Origin: a virus
Length of the DNA stretch: 35,259 bases
IMG/VR virus record: IMGVR_UViG_3300045988_102484
Direction: 5' to 3' (one strand)
Shown: positions 456 to 25,679 of the stretch, piece by piece
Numbering within the stretch: the first letter of the stretch is position 1
How the letters are laid out: each line of letters begins with the position of its first letter
Translations under genes and position numbers: made by a program
Notes under the pieces: model-generated
The model's input: only the letters and a program-made list of their open reading frames with translations
Told to the model about the DNA's origin: nothing
The model's database searches: none

Positions 456-1606
456 AAGCCTACATCCTGTCCGCCGTACTCAATAGCAAGAGCGACGAGC
501 AAATAAGGGAACACGTCCGGAAAGAGGTTGAGGAATTCCGGCAGGAGTTCAGCGAATCGCAAGCGGAGGAGGCGACCGGCTATGTGCAGGAGCTGACCGC
601 GCTGGCGGAGGATGTGCTGGCAATGACGCGGAAGGCGATGGGAAATCTGACGCCGTATATGTTCGCGGCGGCAGTAGCGCCGACTGGGAATCTGACTGAG
701 ACGCAGAAAGCCAACATCGGAAAGGCTGCGCAACTCATCATGCGACCGATCGACAGGGAAACGGTCAGAAAGGTCGCCGTCGAATACCGATACAAGCCGG
801 CAAGCGGAGAGCCGACCGCAGATCTTCCGGAATTCGCTTACAACCGGGCGACGCCCGCGCAGACCTACTACAAGGACGTCCACGAGCAGACGCGGGCATG
901 GATGCAGGATTTCCAAAAGATCAAAGAGAGCCGGAACTTTGTCGCAAATGTAAACCCAAGAGCTTACACGGAGATGGGGGTGCGGTTCGATGCATACCGC
1001 CGCGAAAAGGCTCGGCTGATACAGCAGGGGGTCAAAACCGTATACGTTGCGCCGCACGCCAACTGCTCCTTGCGTTGCCAAAGGTGGCAAGGGCGTGTGT
1101 ACAGTCTGGACGGCTTCCGAGGCGTGCGAGACGGTCGGAACGTGATCCCTATTGAGGACGCCGCGGACAATGTGACGTACACGAGCAAGCGCACCGGGCG
1201 AACGTATCAGGCGGGGCTATTCGCCTATAACTGCCGGCACAGCATGACGCCGTATCAAGACGGGCAGCTTGTTGAGACGATACCGGCGGACGTGGTGGCA
1301 ACGCAACGGGCGCTTGAGGAGCGGCAACGCGCGATGGAGCGCGAGATCCGGTTTCAAAAAGAAAAAGGCACATACTGGGAGATTTTGGCAGGCAAGAACA
1401 ACAACGTCGGACTTGACAAGGTGGCGCGGTCTTGCTACGGCAAGGCGGCTGTTTTGAAAAAAAGATACATAGCATTTTCGAAAAAGAACAACATCCCGGT
1501 TGTTCCAGAGCGCCTTTCGATAATGCAAGGCGAGGCGCTTTACACACGGACAGCACGGGGCAAGCGCGATATCAAGGATGTCAGCGCGAACCCCGATGTC
1601 AAATAA
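380..1606 (+). CDS. Head morphogenesis / minor capsid protein (Mu F / SPP1 gp7-like)
   Basis: 408-aa ORF downstream of the portal. Has the Cys/His motif region ...PHANCSLRC...YNCRHSM... typical of MuF-like proteins. No Shine-Dalgarno precedes ATG 380, which overlaps the methylase by 76 nt, so the start is uncertain (TTG 407 is the alternative). Confidence 0.65.
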   Translation: MGRYAYKKSLPDWGAQTAADLKIAIKAYILSAVLNSKSDEQIREHVRKEVEEFRQEFSESQAEEATGYVQELTALAEDVLAMTRKAMGNLTPYMFAAAVAPTGNLTETQKANIGKAAQLIMRPIDRETVRKVAVEYRYKPASGEPTADLPEFAYNRATPAQTYYKDVHEQTRAWMQDFQKIKESRNFVANVNPRAYTEMGVRFDAYRREKARLIQQGVKTVYVAPHANCSLRCQRWQGRVYSLDGFRGVRDGRNVIPIEDAADNVTYTSKRTGRTYQAGLFAYNCRHSMTPYQDGQLVETIPADVVATQRALEERQRAMEREIRFQKEKGTYWEILAGKNNNVGLDKVARSCYGKAAVLKKRYIAFSKKNNIPVVPERLSIMQGEALYTRTARGKRDIKDVSANPDVK

Positions 1607-1672
1607 AAATATGACTGGAATGTCGTTAAACTATCAAGGCAAGGGACGCGACCCCGTAAAAAAGCGTAGCCG

Positions 1673-2206
1673 ATGGAGGAATTTATGAAAAGAAGCGAAA
1701 TTGAAGCCATCCTGAACAACGCCGATCTTGATGCGGCGGCACGAATCGACCAGATCATGGCGGTGCATGGTCGGGATACGACCGCATGGCAGCAGGAACG
1801 CGCCACATTGACGCAAGAGCGTGACGACGCCCGTGCATCAGGTACCGCGCACGCCGACTATGATGCCGTAGCGGCTGAGCGTGACGAGTTACGCGCGTAC
1901 AAGGCGGACAGAGAGTTGGGCGACAGATTCGCGGCAGTCGTTGGCGGCGCCAAATTTGCGAATGAATACACCGAAAAAGGTGTGCGGCGCGATTTCGCGG
2001 CGGCACTTAGCGACGACGGAAACAAGGACAAGACCGATGCGGACATTTATGCCGGTATTGTCAAGGGGCACGAGTCGGAGTACTTTGTCGGCAAGCCGAG
2101 GATCATCATGCCGGCGCCGCAGGGGGGAAGACATCCCAGGAATGAACTCGAGGCATACATCGATCAGGAGTACAAGGACGATCCCTTTTATAAGCCGAGA
2201 GGCTAA
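1673..2206 (+). CDS. Capsid scaffolding protein (by position and composition)
   Basis: 177-aa charged, helical, Ala/Asp/Glu/Arg-rich protein immediately upstream of the major capsid gene. Alternative start ATG 1685. Confidence 0.6.
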   Translation: MEEFMKRSEIEAILNNADLDAAARIDQIMAVHGRDTTAWQQERATLTQERDDARASGTAHADYDAVAAERDELRAYKADRELGDRFAAVVGGAKFANEYTEKGVRRDFAAALSDDGNKDKTDADIYAGIVKGHESEYFVGKPRIIMPAPQGGRHPRNELEAYIDQEYKDDPFYKPRG

Positions 2207-2227: not shown

Positions 2228-3133
2228 ATGTCGTTCAAATACGTAAACATGAATATCGACGAGGTCTATGCGCGGATTTTTGAGCGTAACTTCTACCGGG
2301 ACACCGTTCTTATGCCGGGTGTGACTTACACCGACAAGTATCAGGACGGACCCGCCGGGGCGATCTACGTCCACAAATTTGCGGACGGTGCGCCAACTGT
2401 ACCGGGAGCTCCCGGTCGTGACTTCACTCACACGGTCGCAAGCGACTCGCTCATCCAGATCTTGCTCAATAACAACTACCAGGAATCGGACAAGCTGTAT
2501 CAGGTTCAGCTTAACGCGATTTCCGCACCCGCCGAAGCAGCGCTATTGACTCGCGTGACGCAGAAGGTGCGCCAGGGTCGCGACCTTTCTGCGCTCGGAT
2601 GCCTCATTACCGAAGGCACGAGGTCTGCCAACTCCGGCGTGATCGGATCCGCTTCCGGGAACGTTTCGGCGCTTGACGCGCTCGCCAAGGAGCGCACTGC
2701 CGCATCCGAGGCGGCAGCTTCTTCTGCTCGCGTCGTTCTTGCCGCACCTCGCTTTGTCGAGCAGTTCGTTCGCGAGGCGTTTGGGAAGTTCACGCCTTCC
2801 TATAACGACACGCTGATCCGTAGCAACGCGCGAGTCATTGACTACCTCGACTTCCACATCATCGAATGCAATATGCTGTCCATCGCGTCCGCGTCCAAGT
2901 ACTATGACAGCACCGGCACGCTGAAGACCGTCGCCCAGACTGATCTCGCCGACGTCGATTTCATCATGTACAATCCGGAAGCCTTCTCGGTCATTGACAA
3001 CCTCAACGTGATGCGCGTCATTGATGGCGGGAAGGACTTCCTCGGCGTGTTGGCACAGGAGGAGGTCAACACCGGATTCAAAGTTACCAATTCCGCGCTC
3101 GTGCGCGTACGCAGAACGACAGCCGCAGGCTAA
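2228..3133 (+). CDS. Major capsid protein
   Basis: 301-aa ORF with RBS GAAAGGAAAAACACA-ATG. Sits after the scaffold and before the head-tail connectors. Typical size and composition. Confidence 0.7.
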   Translation: MSFKYVNMNIDEVYARIFERNFYRDTVLMPGVTYTDKYQDGPAGAIYVHKFADGAPTVPGAPGRDFTHTVASDSLIQILLNNNYQESDKLYQVQLNAISAPAEAALLTRVTQKVRQGRDLSALGCLITEGTRSANSGVIGSASGNVSALDALAKERTAASEAAASSARVVLAAPRFVEQFVREAFGKFTPSYNDTLIRSNARVIDYLDFHIIECNMLSIASASKYYDSTGTLKTVAQTDLADVDFIMYNPEAFSVIDNLNVMRVIDGGKDFLGVLAQEEVNTGFKVTNSALVRVRRTTAAG

Positions 3134-22115: not shown

Positions 22116-22135
22116 CGTTTCAAATTTCGTTTCAA
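22116..22135. repeat. Two further CGTTTCAA copies (12-bp spacing) overlapping the int stop codon
   Basis: CGTTTCAA at 22116..22123 and 22128..22135. Confidence 0.6.
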
Positions 22136-23199
22136 TTTTTGCTAAAAACTCCAGAAAAATAGGACTGCAGCTGATCCTGGACGCTGCTCTTTTTGGACGC
22201 CATGATGTGCCCGTAAACTTGGTCAATCATGTTCTCTGTCTCGTGCCCGACATAGTCCGCGATGTACTTCTTCGGCACGTTGAGCGACAGCATGACGGAT
22301 ATCAGATAATGTCGCAAGTCGTGGAAGCGGTACTGCCGGACGCCTGCACGTTTAATGACCCACCGCCAGCGCGACGTGATGTCCGCCGGGTTGATCGTGA
22401 TGCGGTCGCCCGGCTCCGCTCCGTTCGGCTTGGCGGCATTCAGCGCGTCCACGACCGCCGGGAACAGCTTGATGGTTCGCGTGCCGGCTCTCGTCTTGGT
22501 TGTCTTTGTGTGGTATTCATTGTCGTCTCCGAGTACCAGTGCCTGATGGATGCTGATGATGCCATCGTATAGATCTACATCGCGCCACGTGAGCGCGGCG
22601 ATCTCCGAACGACGCATACCACAGCAGGCGCCAAGTAAGACCGGGATTTCCATATCGGTGCCGGCGGCGGCTTGCATAATGCGCCGAATCTCCTGCTCTG
22701 TCGGTATCCTGACCGTGCTCCGCTCCTTCTGCGGCATTCGAATGTTGAAAGTCACGTCCGGCATCTCGTCAGCAAGAGACGCCGAAAAAAGCCCGTAGGC
22801 GTTGCGAACCGTTTTGGGCGCAACTCTGCGTGCCTCATCGTTTACGACGCTCTGGACGAGATTTTGCGACAGCCCCGACAGTTTAGCATCCAGAAGCTCC
22901 TGCAAATTGTTCCGGACTATGCCACGGTATGAGCGAATCGTAGCCGGGGACAGGACTGCGGCGCGGCGGTCTATATAGTCGTTCATCATGTCGCGGACGG
23001 TTCGTCCCTGCCCTGTCCGTGCCGCGCGCTTGTCTGCCTTGCGCGCGGCAAGCTCCAGCTGAACCTCGGCATAGGTGGCGCGCGTGATTGACTCGACGAT
23101 AGACTTACCGTCCGGATCCTTTCCGGCGTATATGCGCGCCGTATAGGAGCCGGACGGGAGTTGTTTGATTCTGGGTAGCCTTGTGTTGCGTCGCGTCAT
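22132..23199 (-). CDS. int: Tyrosine recombinase / phage integrase
   Basis: 355 aa. Has ..AALTWRDVDL.. (Arg), HDLRHYLIS (HxxR) and GHETENMIDQVYGH (His...Tyr), plus an N-terminal SAM-like arm/core-binding region. Adjacent to attP. Confidence 0.92.
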   Translation of the reverse strand: MTRRNTRLPRIKQLPSGSYTARIYAGKDPDGKSIVESITRATYAEVQLELAARKADKRAARTGQGRTVRDMMNDYIDRRAAVLSPATIRSYRGIVRNNLQELLDAKLSGLSQNLVQSVVNDEARRVAPKTVRNAYGLFSASLADEMPDVTFNIRMPQKERSTVRIPTEQEIRRIMQAAAGTDMEIPVLLGACCGMRRSEIAALTWRDVDLYDGIISIHQALVLGDDNEYHTKTTKTRAGTRTIKLFPAVVDALNAAKPNGAEPGDRITINPADITSRWRWVIKRAGVRQYRFHDLRHYLISVMLSLNVPKKYIADYVGHETENMIDQVYGHIMASKKSSVQDQLQSYFSGVFSKN

Positions 23200-23621
23200 C
23201 TCTTATCTATCACAATCTGGGTAACCTTCCCGTCCCGGCAATACACGGTAACGGTCAGAAGGTAGCCCTGCGAGGAAACGCGCCAATACGGGAATATACA
23301 GAGCGTTGAGGTCGGGTATCTGCGCGCGAACACATACGACACGGAGCCGTCCTCCAGTATGCTCTTTGCCGGAGAAAATCCGGCGGACTCAACAATCCTG
23401 ACCGCCGTTTCTTCTACGAGCCCGATCTGCAGGCACTTGGCGCTTTCTCGCAACTGGCGCACCTTGTCACGCTCCCGCGACTGCTTGCAGAACGCGACGA
23501 CAAAGCCGATCATCAGATAGAGCGCCAAAGCAATGCCTACGATAATCAGGGTGCGCTTGACGTCTACGTTCTTGGTGGCAGGTGCCACACCGTTCGACAC
23601 AATGAAAGATAAAAACCGCAT
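23196..23621 (-). CDS. Single-pass membrane protein co-transcribed with int (superinfection-exclusion candidate)
   Basis: AGGAGG then ATG 23621 (internal to track ORF 23196..23780). 141 aa. TM segment LIIVGIALALYLMIGFVVAF. ATGA overlap with the int start. Confidence 0.6.
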   Translation of the reverse strand: MRFLSFIVSNGVAPATKNVDVKRTLIIVGIALALYLMIGFVVAFCKQSRERDKVRQLRESAKCLQIGLVEETAVRIVESAGFSPAKSILEDGSVSYVFARRYPTSTLCIFPYWRVSSQGYLLTVTVYCRDGKVTQIVIDKR

Positions 23622-23645: not shown

Positions 23646-23734
23646 GTTGTTTTTCAAGGCGCGTCCGCCGTCGATTTTACCAAATATATCTTTACAATTT
23701 ATGCCAAAAGTCAATAGACGCGGACGGCGGCAGG

Positions 23735-23743
23735 TGTTATAAT
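23735..23743 (+). promoter_or_regulatory. Extended -10 promoter (TGTTATAAT) reading toward the repressor gene
   Basis: TGnTATAAT at 23735..23743. A weak -35, TAGACG, lies 17 nt upstream. Confidence 0.55.
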
Positions 23744-23773
23744 AAGACATGAAGAAAAGCAAGGAGGAAAAAA

Positions 23774-23953
23774 ATGACAAAATCGGAATTGCAAGAACGC
23801 CTGACCGCCATCATTCGCGCGAGCGACAAGCCCGAGCTTGTCGCCGCTCTCACTGTCCTTTCCGCTCGTACATACGTGCGATTGCTTCGACCGTCTGCAG
23901 GAAGTCCTCCCGCTTGTCCGCCGGGACACTGTCCGCCGCCTTCAGAACGCTGA
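23774..23953 (+). CDS. 59-codon ORF with strong RBS, convergent with and overlapping the repressor 3' end (small protein or antisense RNA)
   Basis: AAGGAGG lies 6 nt (AAAAAA) upstream of ATG 23774. Encodes MTKSELQERLTAIIRASDKPELVAALTVLSARTYV... Below the 60-aa track cut-off. The last ~35 codons are antisense to 23850..23953. Confidence 0.4.
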   Translation: MTKSELQERLTAIIRASDKPELVAALTVLSARTYVRLLRPSAGSPPACPPGHCPPPSER

Positions 23954-24194
23954 CCATATACGGCGGCATTTCGCCCTCTGCTTCGGCAGGGGGCTTTTTT
24001 TCGTCCCGCTCGGTCAATAGATCCGCAACCGATACGCCGAAATAATCCGCAATCTTGCGAACCGTTGAGTTTCGCGGGACAGTATTATCGCCCCATTCCG
24101 AGAAAACAGAGGAAGAGAAACCGAGGTCTGTCATAACCTTAGACGGAGATACGCCCTTGTCGGCGCAGATTTTGATGAAATTACTCTTAAACAT
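23850..24194 (-). CDS. XRE-family HTH repressor (CI-like)
   Basis: 114 aa. ..KGVSPSKVMTDLGFSSSVFSEWGDNTVPRNSTVRKIADYFGVSVADLL.. is a classic HTH_3 domain. Divergent from the early promoter. No SD precedes ATG 24194, so the transcript may be leaderless. Confidence 0.85.
   Translation of the reverse strand: MFKSNFIKICADKGVSPSKVMTDLGFSSSVFSEWGDNTVPRNSTVRKIADYFGVSVADLLTERDEKKPPAEAEGEMPPYMVSVLKAADSVPADKREDFLQTVEAIARMYERKGQ
23973..24001 (+). terminator. Rho-independent terminator on the + strand, embedded in the repressor coding region
   Basis: GCCCTCTGC-TTCG-GCAGGGGGC (9 bp including one G.U pair, TTCG loop) followed by T7 (23995..24001). Confidence 0.75.
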
Positions 24195-24236: not shown

Positions 24237-24288
24237 ACAAAACCGAGAAAAACCGAACAAGACTATTGACAAACCGAGAAAAACCGAG
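24237..24288 (+). promoter_or_regulatory. Operator-like direct repeats (two ACAAA(A)CCGAGAAAAACCGA units = four AACCGA half-sites)
   Basis: AACCGA at 24241, 24251, 24273 and 24283, with spacings of 10, 22 and 10 bp. The second unit forms the spacer of the early promoter. Confidence 0.65.
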
Positions 24289-24294
24289 TATAAT
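24266..24294 (+). promoter_or_regulatory. Early lytic promoter (perfect TTGACA-N17-TATAAT)
   Basis: TTGACA at 24266..24271, a 17-nt spacer, TATAAT at 24289..24294. Divergent from the repressor gene. Confidence 0.85.
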
Positions 24295-24300
24295 ACTGTT

Positions 24301-24423
24301 GCACCCACCGAGAGGCGCTTGACGTCCAGATCATCCTGCCCGGATGATCCGGCGGGTGCCCATCGCGACCCTCCTGTTCCTCGCCCGCCGAAAGGTGGGC
24401 ATTGGAAAGGGATGGAAAATCGC
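24301..24423 (+). ncRNA. Structured 5' leader: two long imperfect hairpins directly downstream of the early promoter
   Basis: Hairpin 1 (24301..24359): GCACCCACCG pairs with CGGCGGGTGC and encloses an 8-bp GATCATCC/GGATGATC stem-loop. Hairpin 2 (24365..24423): nested GCGA/UCGC, CCCU/AGGG and UUCC/GGAA pairs plus a 7-bp apical stem capped by GAAA. Confidence 0.5.
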
Positions 24424-24593
24424 AACAAGCCACCCAAAAGACGACAGAAAAGACACAACCAAAACACACTTGCATTATAGCAGATTCGTGTCTTGCTGTC
24501 AATAGCCAAAATTCAAAAAAAGGAGTTGAAACTCGGAAAAATTGAACGGAAAGCCCCAAAATTTAAGCAAAAGAAGGAAAGGAGAAGCGAGGA

Positions 24594-25065: not shown

Positions 25066-25450
25066 ACGGGACTACAAGGCGCGGTTGCTTGCGACCGGGA
25101 CTACAAGTCAGAAGGTCGCCGATCTAATCGGCGCGGCAATCGGGGAGCCGGTGGCACGCTACGAGTTGGCGCGGTGCTTTGACTACAAGTGCGACTCCGG
25201 AAAGGTGAGCAGGATAAGAGCGGAGGCGGACAGGATAACCGCCAAGCTGGTGCGGCGGCGCGAAAACGAGGAGAAAGAGGACGTGATCGACGCGCTCAAG
25301 CGCGAGGGCGTCCTGACGCCTGACAAGGACGTGACGATCTTCCTCGGCGACTACAGCTGGGGCGCGACGGTGTTCGTGTTCATAGGCGGCGAGTTTTACG
25401 GCATCCGAAACCCTGAAACCGGGAAGTGGAGGATGCGGAAGGATGGCTAA
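25055..25450 (+). CDS. Early hypothetical protein, possible N-terminal HTH
   Basis: 131 aa, GTG start 8 nt after GAGGAGGTG. Candidate HTH: ..TSQKVADLIGAAIGEPVARYELAR.. Confidence 0.55.
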   Translation: MLSKRDYKARLLATGTTSQKVADLIGAAIGEPVARYELARCFDYKCDSGKVSRIRAEADRITAKLVRRRENEEKEDVIDALKREGVLTPDKDVTIFLGDYSWGATVFVFIGGEFYGIRNPETGKWRMRKDG

Positions 25451-25679
25451 AAAGGCAGGGACAAACAAGATGCTGGCGACCGTCGGGAGCAACATCGCCT
25501 GCCTGACCAAGGTCAGGGGCAAGACCTGCGAGGAGATGGCGCAGACTCTGTGCATGAGCCGCAACACGTGGCACAACCGCGTGTCCAATCCGGGCAGCAT
25601 CTCGTTGCTTGAGCTCGACGCGATAGCCAAGGCGCTCGGAACCACGCCGCAACGGATTTTGACGGAAACGGCATGGTGA
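25443..25679 (+). CDS. XRE-family HTH protein (Cro-like/early regulator candidate)
   Basis: 78 aa. ..KTCEEMAQTLCMSRNTWHNRVSNPGSISLLELDAIAKALGTTPQRIL.. fits HTH_3. Confidence 0.7.
   Translation: MAKKAGTNKMLATVGSNIACLTKVRGKTCEEMAQTLCMSRNTWHNRVSNPGSISLLELDAIAKALGTTPQRILTETAW

What the first reader, a model, noticed from the sequence alone, without database searches (positions are those of the whole stretch)
23735..24001. Complete convergent transcription unit (promoter, RBS, 59-codon ORF, strong terminator) overlapping the 3' half of the repressor gene in antisense
Four + strand elements form one unit:
- An extended -10 promoter, TGTTATAAT (23735..23743).
- A perfect AAGGAGG RBS.
- An ORF at 23774..23953.
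- A 9-bp TTCG-loop hairpin followed by T7 (23973..24001).

Why it is notable:
- The terminator lies inside the repressor coding region (23850..24194, minus strand). The ~250-nt transcript is therefore antisense to roughly the last 150 nt of the repressor mRNA.
- The first ~25 residues of the ORF look like a normal helical peptide. The remainder is Pro-rich and is dictated by the opposite strand.

Interpretation:
- This resembles antisense or convergent control of immunity, with conceptual parallels in lambda oop and P22 sar.
- It could be a switch component, either an anti-repressor RNA or a micro-protein, that the ORF track misses because it falls under 60 aa.
Basis: partly seen in the sequence, partly recalled or inferred. 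Interest (0 to 1): 0.65.

Follow-up and report, generated by a model that had tools for sequence, protein, structure and literature searches.

The report
Convergent small gene ending inside repressor gene
A gut-bacterial prophage carries a real, conserved mini-gene that faces its repressor gene and stops at a terminator built into the repressor's flexible linker; it most likely makes a small protein that switches the repressor off, as was recently shown for Bacillus "arbitrium" phages.

Summary
All four + strand elements are present at the stated coordinates. Sixteen natural copies of the 333-bp cassette (window 23669..24001) keep TG, TATAAT, AAGGAGG and ATG unchanged, while other non-coding positions vary. 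In the part of the small ORF outside the repressor gene, 5 of 6 variable sites are at third codon positions. One hairpin variant carries a compensatory double change.

An antisense hairpin plus T-tract also sits in the linker-coding segment of 52 of 65 distinct related repressors (0.015 expected per locus). There are 29 different stem sequences, and 26 of them are more stable on the antisense strand. A cultured Flavonifractor phage has one too.

In at least five other lineages the convergent small ORF resembles the repressor's own two-helix tail and looks like a diverged inverted duplicate of it. In the window's lineage this similarity is not significant.

Best reading: a small antirepressor like AimX or SinI. 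Its embedded terminator would stop read-through into the lytic operon. No aimR or aimP genes are present. An RNA-level antisense role is not excluded. I classify it as a new variant of a known kind. The linker terminator appears to be undescribed.

The parts
23669..23734 (.). Upstream part of the conserved cassette. The left recombination boundary lies at 23669/23670. It contains the -35-like TAGACG (23715..23720).
   Evidence: identity collapses to the left of 23669 in copies that carry a different upstream membrane-protein gene. 12 of 66 positions vary.
23735..23743 (+). Extended -10 promoter element TGnTATAAT. The transcription start near 23750 is inferred.
   Evidence: 10 of 12 consensus matches plus TG. 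Only the n position (23737, t/c) varies among 16 copies.
23761..23767 (+). Shine-Dalgarno sequence AAGGAGG, 5-6 nt upstream of the ATG.
   Evidence: It is intact in all copies, and only the spacer length and base vary.
23774..23953 (+). Small ORF of 59 codons. Residues 1-38 (23774..23887) are the predicted two-helix part. Residues 39-59 are a disordered extension read antisense to the repressor tail.
   Evidence: Third-codon-position bias. AlphaFold helices at residues 3-16 and 20-38.
23850..23953 (.). Tail-to-tail overlap of the small ORF and the repressor gene. An imperfect coding palindrome is centred at 23871/23872: ARTY on the + strand (23864..23875) faces ARMY on the - strand (23868..23879).
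   Evidence: Direct reading. Related lineages show the same reflected arrangement.
23973..24001 (+). Intrinsic terminator of the + strand unit: hairpin GCCCTCTGC-TTCG-GCAGGGGGC followed by T7. It is encoded inside the repressor's linker (residues 65-74, EKKPPAEAEG).
   Evidence: Compensatory change. Homologous position in 52 of 65 distinct repressors. Strand asymmetry.
24015..24194 (-). Repressor N-terminal HTH (XRE/HTH_26) domain, residues 1-60. This is the exchangeable immunity-specificity module.
   Evidence: At least five different HTH modules are joined to the same cassette.
23964..24014 (-). Repressor linker, residues 61-77, predicted to be disordered. It hosts the antisense terminator.
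   Evidence: pLDDT below 50 for residues 64-75.
23853..23963 (-). Repressor C-terminal two-helix tail, residues 78-114. It is the presumed oligomerisation domain and the presumed target of the small protein.
   Evidence: helices 78-87 and 92-111. The tail is conserved together with the cassette.

Best explanation
This is a genuine, self-contained convergent gene in the lysogeny module of a temperate phage of gut Oscillospiraceae.

How it is expressed. An extended -10 promoter (23735..23743) starts a transcript of about 250 nt. A strong RBS drives translation of a small protein. Its first ~38 residues form a helix-turn-helix hairpin, and the remainder is a tolerated read-out of the opposite strand.

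What the protein most likely does (inferred). It acts as an antirepressor. It would bind the two-helix C-terminal tail of the phage repressor, block its oligomerisation and so release the early lytic promoter. AimX does this to AimC in Bacillus arbitrium phages, and SinI does it to SinR.

What the terminator does. The transcript ends at an intrinsic terminator written into the codons of the repressor's disordered linker. This is the only stretch between the small gene and the lytic promoter whose coding sequence is free enough to hold a hairpin. Inferred role: it stops antirepressor transcription, which runs in the same direction as the lytic operon, from reading through the operator region into the lytic genes. 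It also limits the antisense overlap to the tail-coding part.

Shown: the elements, their conservation, the coding signature, the generality and strand bias of the terminator, and the tail-like small ORFs in sister lineages.
Inferred: expression, protein-protein binding, and the insulator role.
For: - Elements present at the stated coordinates.
- 16 copies from IMG/VR, Logan, ENA and JGI human-gut assemblies keep TG, TATAAT, AAGGAGG and ATG invariant. 5 of 6 substitutions in the non-overlapping ORF part are at third codon positions.
- The hairpin shows a compensatory change.
- The same cassette is joined to at least five different HTH modules, with the junction exactly at the T-run.
- Antisense terminator at repressor residues ~65-78 in 52 of 65 distinct repressors, against 0.015 expected per locus.
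- 29 distinct stems. The antisense RNA is more stable in 26 of 29, mean -19.0 against -14.4 kcal/mol.
- The terminator is also present in the cultured Flavonifractor phage Chenonceau.
- Convergent small ORFs with an RBS occur in L030, L037, L049, L060 and L066. In each, the small ORF is the best match to its own repressor tail among ~125-150 six-frame ORF pieces (z 5.1-9.1; shuffle z 4.3-7.5).
- An HMM built from four of these small ORFs finds the repressors as its next-best hits among 14,044 ORF pieces.
- Nucleotide identity between the two arms by codon position is 51/61/38 %, which points to protein-level conservation.
- AlphaFold: the repressor is HTH, disordered linker, then two helices. 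The small ORF product has two helices.
- Foldseek hits covering the full length include SinR/SinI 1b0n and the phi106 repressor-AimX complex 9sf2, both weak.
- Experimental precedent for this geometry and mechanism: bioRxiv 10.1101/2025.11.23.689978.
- The two candidate operator copies (24240..24256 and 24271..24287) are absent from the small-ORF promoter.
Against: - There are no expression data of any kind.
- In the window's own lineage the small ORF is not significantly similar to its repressor tail (z 1.1; not the best piece). It is also not hit by HMMs of small ORFs or tails from other lineages.
- Pfam (including SinI) and PHROGs give nothing.
- The coding signature rests on only six variable sites.
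- Cassette identity of 94-98 % may simply be the background identity of a closely related phage group.
- The linker terminator also occurs where the repressor is followed directly by a co-directional gene. It is therefore not tied to an adjacent small ORF.
- The Foldseek E-values are weak (0.01-0.1).
- Nothing shows what regulates the promoter. No LexA-type box lies near it.
Confidence: 0.5

Rival explanations
1. The RNA is the effector. The ~250-nt transcript, or the act of convergent transcription, lowers repressor output or the expression of the downstream membrane-protein and integrase genes. This would work by duplex formation and RNase III cleavage, or by polymerase collision. Translation of the small ORF would be incidental or would only stabilise the RNA.
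For: - The whole transcript is complementary to the repressor transcript, because no minus-strand terminator follows the repressor stop codon.
- The terminator always leaves the tail-coding part covered and the HTH part free, even in loci where the nearest convergent small ORF lies hundreds of nt away.
- The transcript folds better than shuffled sequences (z -2.6).
Against: - An invariant perfect RBS and ATG, together with third-position substitutions, are not expected for a non-coding RNA.
- In the one system with this geometry that has been tested, start-codon and recoding mutants showed the protein to be the effector and the antisense RNA to be nearly without effect.
Confidence: 0.2
2. The terminator is only an insulator that shields the immunity switch and lytic operon from any leftward-originating + strand transcription (late operon, morons or host read-through). 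The small ORF would be a decaying remnant of an inverted duplication with no present function.
For: - The terminator is present in many loci without an adjacent small ORF.
- The window's small ORF has no significant similarity to anything except its own copies.
Against: - The promoter, RBS and ATG are invariant in 16 copies, whereas neighbouring positions vary at 22 %.
- The ORF is intact in all 16 copies.
- A coding-type substitution pattern is present.
- Small ORFs of the same kind persist in many deeply diverged lineages.
Confidence: 0.12
3. The element acts on the sense strand. GA-A_AAA_AAG in the repressor frame, followed by the hairpin, would be a dnaX-type -1 frameshift or slippage site. 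It would yield a repressor isoform without the normal tail.
For: An in-frame A_AAA_AAR heptamer abuts the hairpin in the window and in 13 of 29 hairpin classes.
Against: - 16 of 29 classes lack an A_AAA_AAR heptamer (14 have none at all), yet all keep the hairpin plus antisense T-tract.
- The spacer is -1 to 2 nt, whereas known stimulators need about 5-9 nt (own knowledge).
- 44 of 292 stem pairs are G.T on the antisense strand, which makes them A.C mismatches in the sense RNA. The sense hairpin is weaker in 26 of 29 classes.
- TTCG loops read CGAA on the sense strand.
- The -1 frame in the window runs on for about 90 codons of unconserved sequence.
Confidence: 0.05
4. The small protein is real but has another job. 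Examples are a directionality or excision cofactor for the neighbouring integrase, or a regulator of the membrane protein.
For: It lies two genes from the integrase (22132..23199) and diverges from the membrane-protein gene. No direct evidence links it to the repressor in this lineage.
Against: - It stays physically fused to the repressor tail when both the upstream gene and the HTH module are exchanged.
- In sister lineages the small ORF copies the repressor tail, not any integrase-related fold.
- A two-helix peptide of 38 residues is unlike known excisionases (own knowledge).
Confidence: 0.08

Closest known systems
AimX-AimC of Bacillus arbitrium phages (phi106, W23, Wbeta, BMBtp14, Waukesha92; Kabel et al., bioRxiv 10.1101/2025.11.23.689978; PDB 9sf2)
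   Same: - A small ORF (29-80 aa there, 59 here) sits convergent to a small HTH repressor and overlaps its 3' end in antisense.
- The repressor is built as HTH, unstructured linker, then a helical C-terminal oligomerisation domain.
- The small proteins are mostly helical, highly divergent, and differ whenever the repressor's C-terminal domain differs.
   Different: - There is no aimR/aimP upstream. The unit has its own constitutive-looking extended -10 promoter, and no LexA box.
- Here the transcript is stopped by a terminator inside the repressor linker. The aimX transcript is reported to extend through the repressor gene.
- The host is gut Oscillospiraceae, not Bacillus.
- No sequence similarity was shown, and binding is untested.
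SinI-SinR of Bacillus subtilis (PDB 1b0n; PMC3163267)
   Same: - SinR is a 111-aa XRE-type repressor with a two-helix multimerisation tail.
- SinI is a 57-aa antagonist that resembles that tail and forms a heterodimer (abstract).
- In L030, L037, L049, L060 and L066 the small ORF likewise resembles its own repressor's tail.
- Foldseek lists 1b0n_A over 109 columns.
   Different: - There is no match to Pfam SinI.
- The genes are convergent and overlapping, not a same-strand sinI-sinR pair.
- In the window's lineage the tail resemblance is not significant.
- The context is a phage immunity module, not a chromosomal biofilm switch.
Short cis-antisense RNAs of phage switches: lambda oop and P22 sar (own knowledge)
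   Same: Each has its own promoter and its own intrinsic terminator. Each is a short transcript that overlaps the end of a regulatory gene on the opposite strand.
   Different: oop and sar are non-coding and act as RNA. Here there is a perfect, invariant RBS and a conserved ORF. The terminator lies inside a domain linker of the target gene.
LexA-controlled small antirepressors of Gifsy prophages (PMC3121763)
   Same: Small proteins that inactivate a non-cleavable phage repressor by binding to it.
   Different: They are encoded elsewhere in the prophage under LexA control. They are not convergent or overlapping with the repressor gene, and no embedded terminator is involved.

Membership tests
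AimX/AimC-type antirepressor module | Small ORF convergent to a small HTH repressor gene and overlapping its 3' end | tested here: met
   ORF 23774..23953 (+) and repressor 23850..24194 (-) overlap by 104 nt.
AimX/AimC-type antirepressor module | Repressor built as HTH domain, unstructured linker, then helical C-terminal oligomerisation domain | tested here: inconclusive
   The AlphaFold model gives an HTH at 1-60, a low-confidence linker at 61-77, and helices at 78-87 and 92-111. Oligomerisation itself was not tested.
AimX/AimC-type antirepressor module | Located downstream of aimR-aimP and activated by AimR | tested here: not met
   No + strand ORF of AimR size lies upstream. The neighbours are a minus-strand membrane-protein gene and the integrase gene.
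AimX/AimC-type antirepressor module | Direct binding of the small protein to the repressor's C-terminal domain, blocking oligomerisation and DNA binding | not testable with these tools
Biochemistry or AF-Multimer is needed.
SinI/SinR | SinI domain (Pfam PF08671) in the antagonist and in the repressor tail | tested here: not met
   No SinI hit for the repressor, its tail, or ten small ORFs at E up to 10.
SinI/SinR | The antagonist is homologous to the repressor's own multimerisation domain | tested here: inconclusive
   Met in L030, L037, L049, L060 and L066. Not significant in the window's lineage (z 1.1). Only reflected matches are seen there: DK.E and AR.Y.
Intrinsic (Rho-independent) terminator | G+C-rich stem-loop immediately followed by a U-tract on the transcribed strand | tested here: met
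   9-bp stem, TTCG loop and T7. About -19 kcal/mol.
Intrinsic (Rho-independent) terminator | Structure conserved through covariation and specific to one strand | tested here: met
   29 different stems at the same protein position. 44 of 292 pairs are G.T on the antisense strand. The antisense RNA is more stable in 26 of 29.
Intrinsic (Rho-independent) terminator | Actual termination of transcription | not testable with these tools
   Term-seq or in vitro transcription is needed.
Non-coding cis-antisense RNA (oop/sar type) | No translated ORF; acts by base pairing | tested here: not met
   Invariant AAGGAGG and ATG, and a coding-type substitution pattern.
dnaX-type -1 programmed frameshift site (sense strand) | In-frame X_XXY_YYZ heptamer with a stimulatory structure 5-9 nt downstream, conserved among homologues | tested here: not met
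   The heptamer is present in the window, but the spacer is -1 nt. An A_AAA_AAR heptamer is found in only 13 of 29 hairpin classes. The hairpin is weaker on the sense strand.

The most novel reading that the evidence does not exclude
A large group of Clostridia phage repressors carries a portable 'tail plus anti-tail' module with three properties.
- The antirepressor gene arose by inverted duplication of the repressor's own oligomerisation helices and still overlaps them tail-to-tail.
- Its terminator is encoded in the repressor's disordered linker, where it acts as an obligatory insulator between antirepressor transcription and the lytic operon.
- The hairpin and T-run also mark the junction at which DNA-binding modules and tail modules are reshuffled.

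The window would be one diverged member of this group.
Probability: 0.35. Interest if true: 0.8.

Novelty: new variant of a known kind. Interest (0 to 1): 0.68.

Why it matters
- Induction mechanism. Small antirepressors facing the repressor gene would not be a peculiarity of Bacillus arbitrium phages. They would be a common switch design in temperate phages of human-gut Clostridia, where induction mechanisms are largely unknown and these genes are invisible to annotation.
- Coding and signals. The terminator in the linker shows a regulatory RNA signal on one strand being written into the unconstrained linker of a protein on the other strand. Only the cross-lineage comparison, not the single-sequence scan, showed it to be more than chance.
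- Testability. The work yields directly testable pairs of repressor tail and small protein, and a cultured entry point in Flavonifractor phage Chenonceau. It also suggests why immunity modules recombine exactly at the linker.

Tried and rejected
- blastn of the lysogeny region against 50,697 phage records: no match.
- The small ORF against 5.8 billion proteins: no candidate.
- The small ORF against 1.84 billion representatives: only P0016, a frameshifted copy of the same ORF.
- The repressor tail against GTDB genomes: nothing.
- Pfam and PHROGs on the small ORF, the tail and ten small ORFs from other lineages: nothing useful. DUF1707 at E 0.088 was dismissed.
- HMMs of small ORFs (4 and 10 seeds) and of non-window tails do not reach the window's small ORF or tail. 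Homology of the window's peptide to those families is therefore not claimed.
- Rfam at permissive threshold: only sub-threshold sRNA models that match the terminator hairpin (best 21.6 bits against a gathering score of 49.5). Rejected.
- Firmicute LexA box: 7 weak matches in the window against 26 expected, none at the promoter. The one at 23867..23880 is the coding palindrome and lacks GAAC/GTTC.
- The repressor's candidate operator (AAACCGAGAAAAACCGA) is absent from the small-ORF promoter.
- An internal start at M76 giving a free tail peptide was considered, because GAGGG precedes the ATG and P0002 is called that way in L088. It was rejected as a general mechanism because the Met is not conserved in other lineages.
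- Co-variation of tail type with small-ORF type under one HTH was not counted as independent evidence. Everything downstream of the hairpin is exchanged as one block.
Full report
1. THE OBSERVATION

The window is a temperate phage genome of about 55 % G+C. Structural and lysis genes lie on the + strand up to about 21 kb. A minus-strand lysogeny module follows: integrase at 22132..23199, a membrane protein at about 23196..23621, and an HTH_26/XRE repressor at 23850..24194. Early genes then run on the + strand from about 24.3 kb.

- Promoter: TAGACG, 17 nt, then TG-t-TATAAT (23715..23743).
- RBS: AAGGAGG (23761..23767).
- ORF: ATG at 23774, ORF 23774..23953.
- Terminator: a 9-bp hairpin with a TTCG loop (23973..23994), then T7.

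The terminator lies in repressor codons 65-74 (EKKPPAEAEG).

A single-sequence scan is not significant by itself. Terminator-like sites are no commoner than in shuffled sequence. The case therefore rests on comparison with related sequences.

2. CLOSE RELATIVES

Searches with the repressor, its tail and the small ORF recovered 15 further copies of a 333-bp cassette (window 23669..24001). They come from IMG/VR, Logan, ENA and JGI human-gut assemblies and are 94-98 % identical to the window.

Both flanks are exchanged. To the left there are two unrelated membrane-protein genes. To the right there are at least five different HTH modules, including double-HTH forms. The right junction falls exactly at the T-run.

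This high identity may simply be the background identity of a closely related phage group, so I looked at which positions vary:
- TG, TATAAT, AAGGAGG and ATG never vary. 20 of 90 other non-coding positions do (P about 0.01). The n of TGnTATAAT and the RBS spacer do vary.
- In the 73 ORF positions outside the repressor gene there are six variable sites. Five are at third codon positions and four are synonymous (P = 0.018).
- In the overlap, the repressor frame takes only conservative changes (RK to KR, Q to R, S to T, K to R). The small ORF takes L to S, R to H and C to W. The small ORF's C-terminal ~25 residues are therefore probably just tolerated.
- The hairpin shows one compensatory T-A to C-G exchange (L001, L096). 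It is synonymous in the repressor frame. A second change turns the G.U pair into A-U (L082, L099).

Several relatives are damaged or deleted:
- L088 has a stop codon at the T-run.
- L089-L092 have lost the integrase, the promoter and the ORF start.
- P0015 fuses the repressor at the linker to the integrase.

In these variants the breakpoints cluster at the linker.

3. DISTANT RELATIVES: THE TERMINATOR

I scanned 99 loci that encode repressors 30-50 % identical to the window's, with quite different tails. An antisense-strand hairpin plus T-tract sits at the same protein position, immediately after the HTH domain at residues ~65-78.

With a stem of at least 8 bp it is present in 52 of 65 distinct full-length repressors. 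The background density is 0.22 per kb per strand, which predicts 0.015 per locus.

There are 29 different hairpin sequences, so the structure is conserved and the sequence is not.

Three observations point to the antisense strand as the functional one:
- The T-tract always follows the hairpin on that strand.
- 44 of 292 stem pairs are G.T there, which makes them A.C mismatches in the repressor mRNA.
- The antisense RNA hairpin is the more stable in 26 of 29 classes (mean -19.0 against -14.4 kcal/mol, Wilcoxon p = 7e-6). TTCG loops recur.

The cultured Flavonifractor phage Chenonceau has the element in an unannotated 112-aa repressor ORF (L108 1719..1696). Listeria phage B025 does not.

AlphaFold places the hairpin-encoded residues in a disordered linker between the HTH (residues 1-60) and two C-terminal helices (78-87 and 92-111).

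4. DISTANT RELATIVES: THE SMALL ORF

Several lineages have a convergent small ORF with an RBS that overlaps the repressor's 3' end: L003, L030, L037, L049 and its relatives, L060, and L066/L080.

In L030, L037, L049, L060 and L066 this ORF is the best match to that locus's own repressor tail among ~125-150 six-frame ORF pieces (z 5.1-9.1). Sequence shuffling gave z 4.3-7.5 and 3.0 for L037.

An HMM built from four of these small ORFs finds the repressors themselves as its next-best hits among 14,044 ORF pieces (E 0.004-0.26).

The similarity extends outside the overlap. In L066, RKLTPER in the small ORF matches RKMSPEQ in the tail. Nucleotide identity between the two arms is 51/61/38 % at codon positions 1/2/3. 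This indicates protein-level conservation of a diverged inverted duplication whose arms overlap tail-to-tail.

In other loci the repressor is followed directly by a co-directional gene, often an ImmA-like metalloprotease. There, tail-like convergent small ORFs lie 300-900 nt further on (L004, L007, L008, L010, L011). In L011, no antisense-strand terminator was found in the 400 nt scanned downstream of the repressor stop, short of that ORF's stop about 500 nt downstream; L004 has a weak 5-bp one.

5. THE WINDOW'S OWN LINEAGE

The geometry is the same here. The centre of symmetry is at 23871/23872, with ARTY on the + strand facing ARMY on the - strand. In the ungapped reflection, D18-K19-x-E21 of the small ORF faces D93-K94-x-E96 of the repressor.

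However, similarity between the small ORF and the tail is not significant (z 1.1). HMMs from the other lineages do not reach the window's small ORF or its tail.

AlphaFold, run on the single sequence, predicts helices at residues 3-16 and 20-38 and a disordered remainder. This is the same kind of hairpin as the tail.

For the window, then, the tail-mimic idea is an inference from position and architecture. It is not a demonstrated homology.

6. WHAT IS KNOWN

A 2025 preprint (10.1101/2025.11.23.689978) reports the following for Bacillus arbitrium phages:
- aimX encodes a 29-80-aa protein. Its gene is convergent to the small HTH repressor aimC and sometimes overlaps it.
- AimX binds AimC's C-terminal oligomerisation domain and prevents oligomerisation and operator binding.
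- Start-codon and recoding mutants leave little role for the antisense RNA.
- The authors compare the mechanism with SinI/SinR.

Foldseek with the repressor model lists SinR/SinI (1b0n_A) and the phi106 repressor-AimX complex (9sf2_A) among the hits that cover the full length, but weakly (E 0.045 and 0.11).

The window differs from the AimX system in several ways:
- It has no aimR or aimP.
- It has its own extended -10 promoter.
- It has no LexA box and no repressor operator at that promoter.
- It has an embedded terminator, whereas aimX transcripts are said to extend through aimC.

I found no description of a terminator in a repressor linker. Absence from the searched library is not proof of absence.

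7. MECHANISM

The most likely mechanism is that the unit expresses a small antirepressor that acts on the repressor tail.

The small gene points the same way as the lytic operon. Unterminated transcription from it would cross the repressor gene in antisense. It would then run through the operators (24240..24287) and the early promoter (24266..24294) into the lytic genes.

The disordered linker is the one stretch in between whose coding sequence can be shaped freely. This would explain why the terminator sits there, and why it persists wherever a convergent small ORF lies downstream.

Rival readings:
- An RNA-level role, through duplex formation with the repressor mRNA or through transcriptional interference, is not excluded and could coexist with the protein role.
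- A sense-strand frameshift reading is weak. An A_AAA_AAR heptamer is present in only 13 of 29 classes, the spacer is about 0 nt, and the sense hairpin is the weaker one.

What controls the promoter is unknown.

8. VERDICT

The unit is very probably a switch component. A micro-protein is more likely than a pure antisense RNA.

In kind it is a new variant of the AimX/SinI type of antirepressor, found in gut Oscillospiraceae phages (host assignment).

Two features seem new and general: the terminator encoded in the repressor linker, and the origin of the small gene as an overlapping inverted copy of the repressor tail. The first is shown for the window. The second is shown for sister lineages only.

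Noticed in passing
window 24266..24294 (+) and 24502..24474 (-): Two perfect 12/12 sigma-70-type promoters face each other about 180 nt apart, at the start of the early region. The minus-strand one also has an extended TG. Transcripts from the two would overlap across the early leader. It is unclear whether the minus-strand promoter feeds the repressor gene through a ~280-nt leader or makes an antisense RNA.
   Followed up: partly
window 24301..24425 (+): The early leader is strongly structured: two hairpin domains, MFE -62.2 kcal/mol, z -4.06 against shuffles. It is conserved in L001, L002 and L082 although the adjacent HTH and operator modules differ. One stem keeps its pairing with a different loop (GAAA in the window, TTTC in L001). 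There is no Rfam match.
   Followed up: partly
window 24240..24256 and 24271..24287: The 17-mer AAACCGAGAAAAACCGA occurs exactly twice in the window, flanking the -35 of the early promoter. These are probably the repressor's operators. L001 and L002 have different repeats at the same place, in step with their different HTH domains.
   Followed up: partly
window 1612..1668 (+): Rfam GP20-b RNA motif (47.1 bits against a gathering score of 36.2), just upstream of the ORF at 1673..2206 in the structural region.
   Followed up: no
L088 ~2970..3000; L089-L092; protein P0015: Natural variants are broken at the linker or hairpin. L088 has a TAG stop at the mutated T-run, which yields a tail-less HTH protein and a separately called 39-aa tail ORF. 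L089 and L092 have 3-4-nt deletions in the G-run. L089-L092 have lost the integrase-side module. P0015 is an in-frame fusion of the repressor at the linker to the integrase C-terminus. The hairpin and T-run look like a hotspot for recombination or deletion.
   Followed up: partly
window 23751..23774 and 23993..24006: The A-rich 5' UTR and RBS of the small-ORF transcript are complementary to the U-tract of its own terminator (12 nt, 92 %). They pair in the MFE fold of the whole transcript. This may be an incidental A-run/U-run match, or a 5'-3' closing helix that masks the RBS.
   Followed up: no
L004, L008/L028 and L009: region 120-520 nt downstream of the repressor stop, antisense strand: One HTH type with nearly the same linker hairpin carries three different tails. 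Each tail comes with a different convergent two-gene mini-operon: a tail-like small ORF beginning MYCTK or MSSCT, followed by a second small ORF that is hydrophobic in two of the three.
   Followed up: partly
L108 (Flavonifractor phage Chenonceau, ON453904) 1501..1839: The deposited annotation splits the repressor region into short hypothetical ORFs. An intact 112-aa XRE repressor ORF with the linker terminator is unannotated. It overlaps the start of the annotated metalloprotease gene.
   Followed up: partly
window 25443..25679 (+): A second small HTH protein (78 aa; phrog_4583 'transcriptional repressor', E 7e-08) is encoded in the early operon. It is a possible Cro-like or AimL-like partner of the switch.
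   Followed up: no
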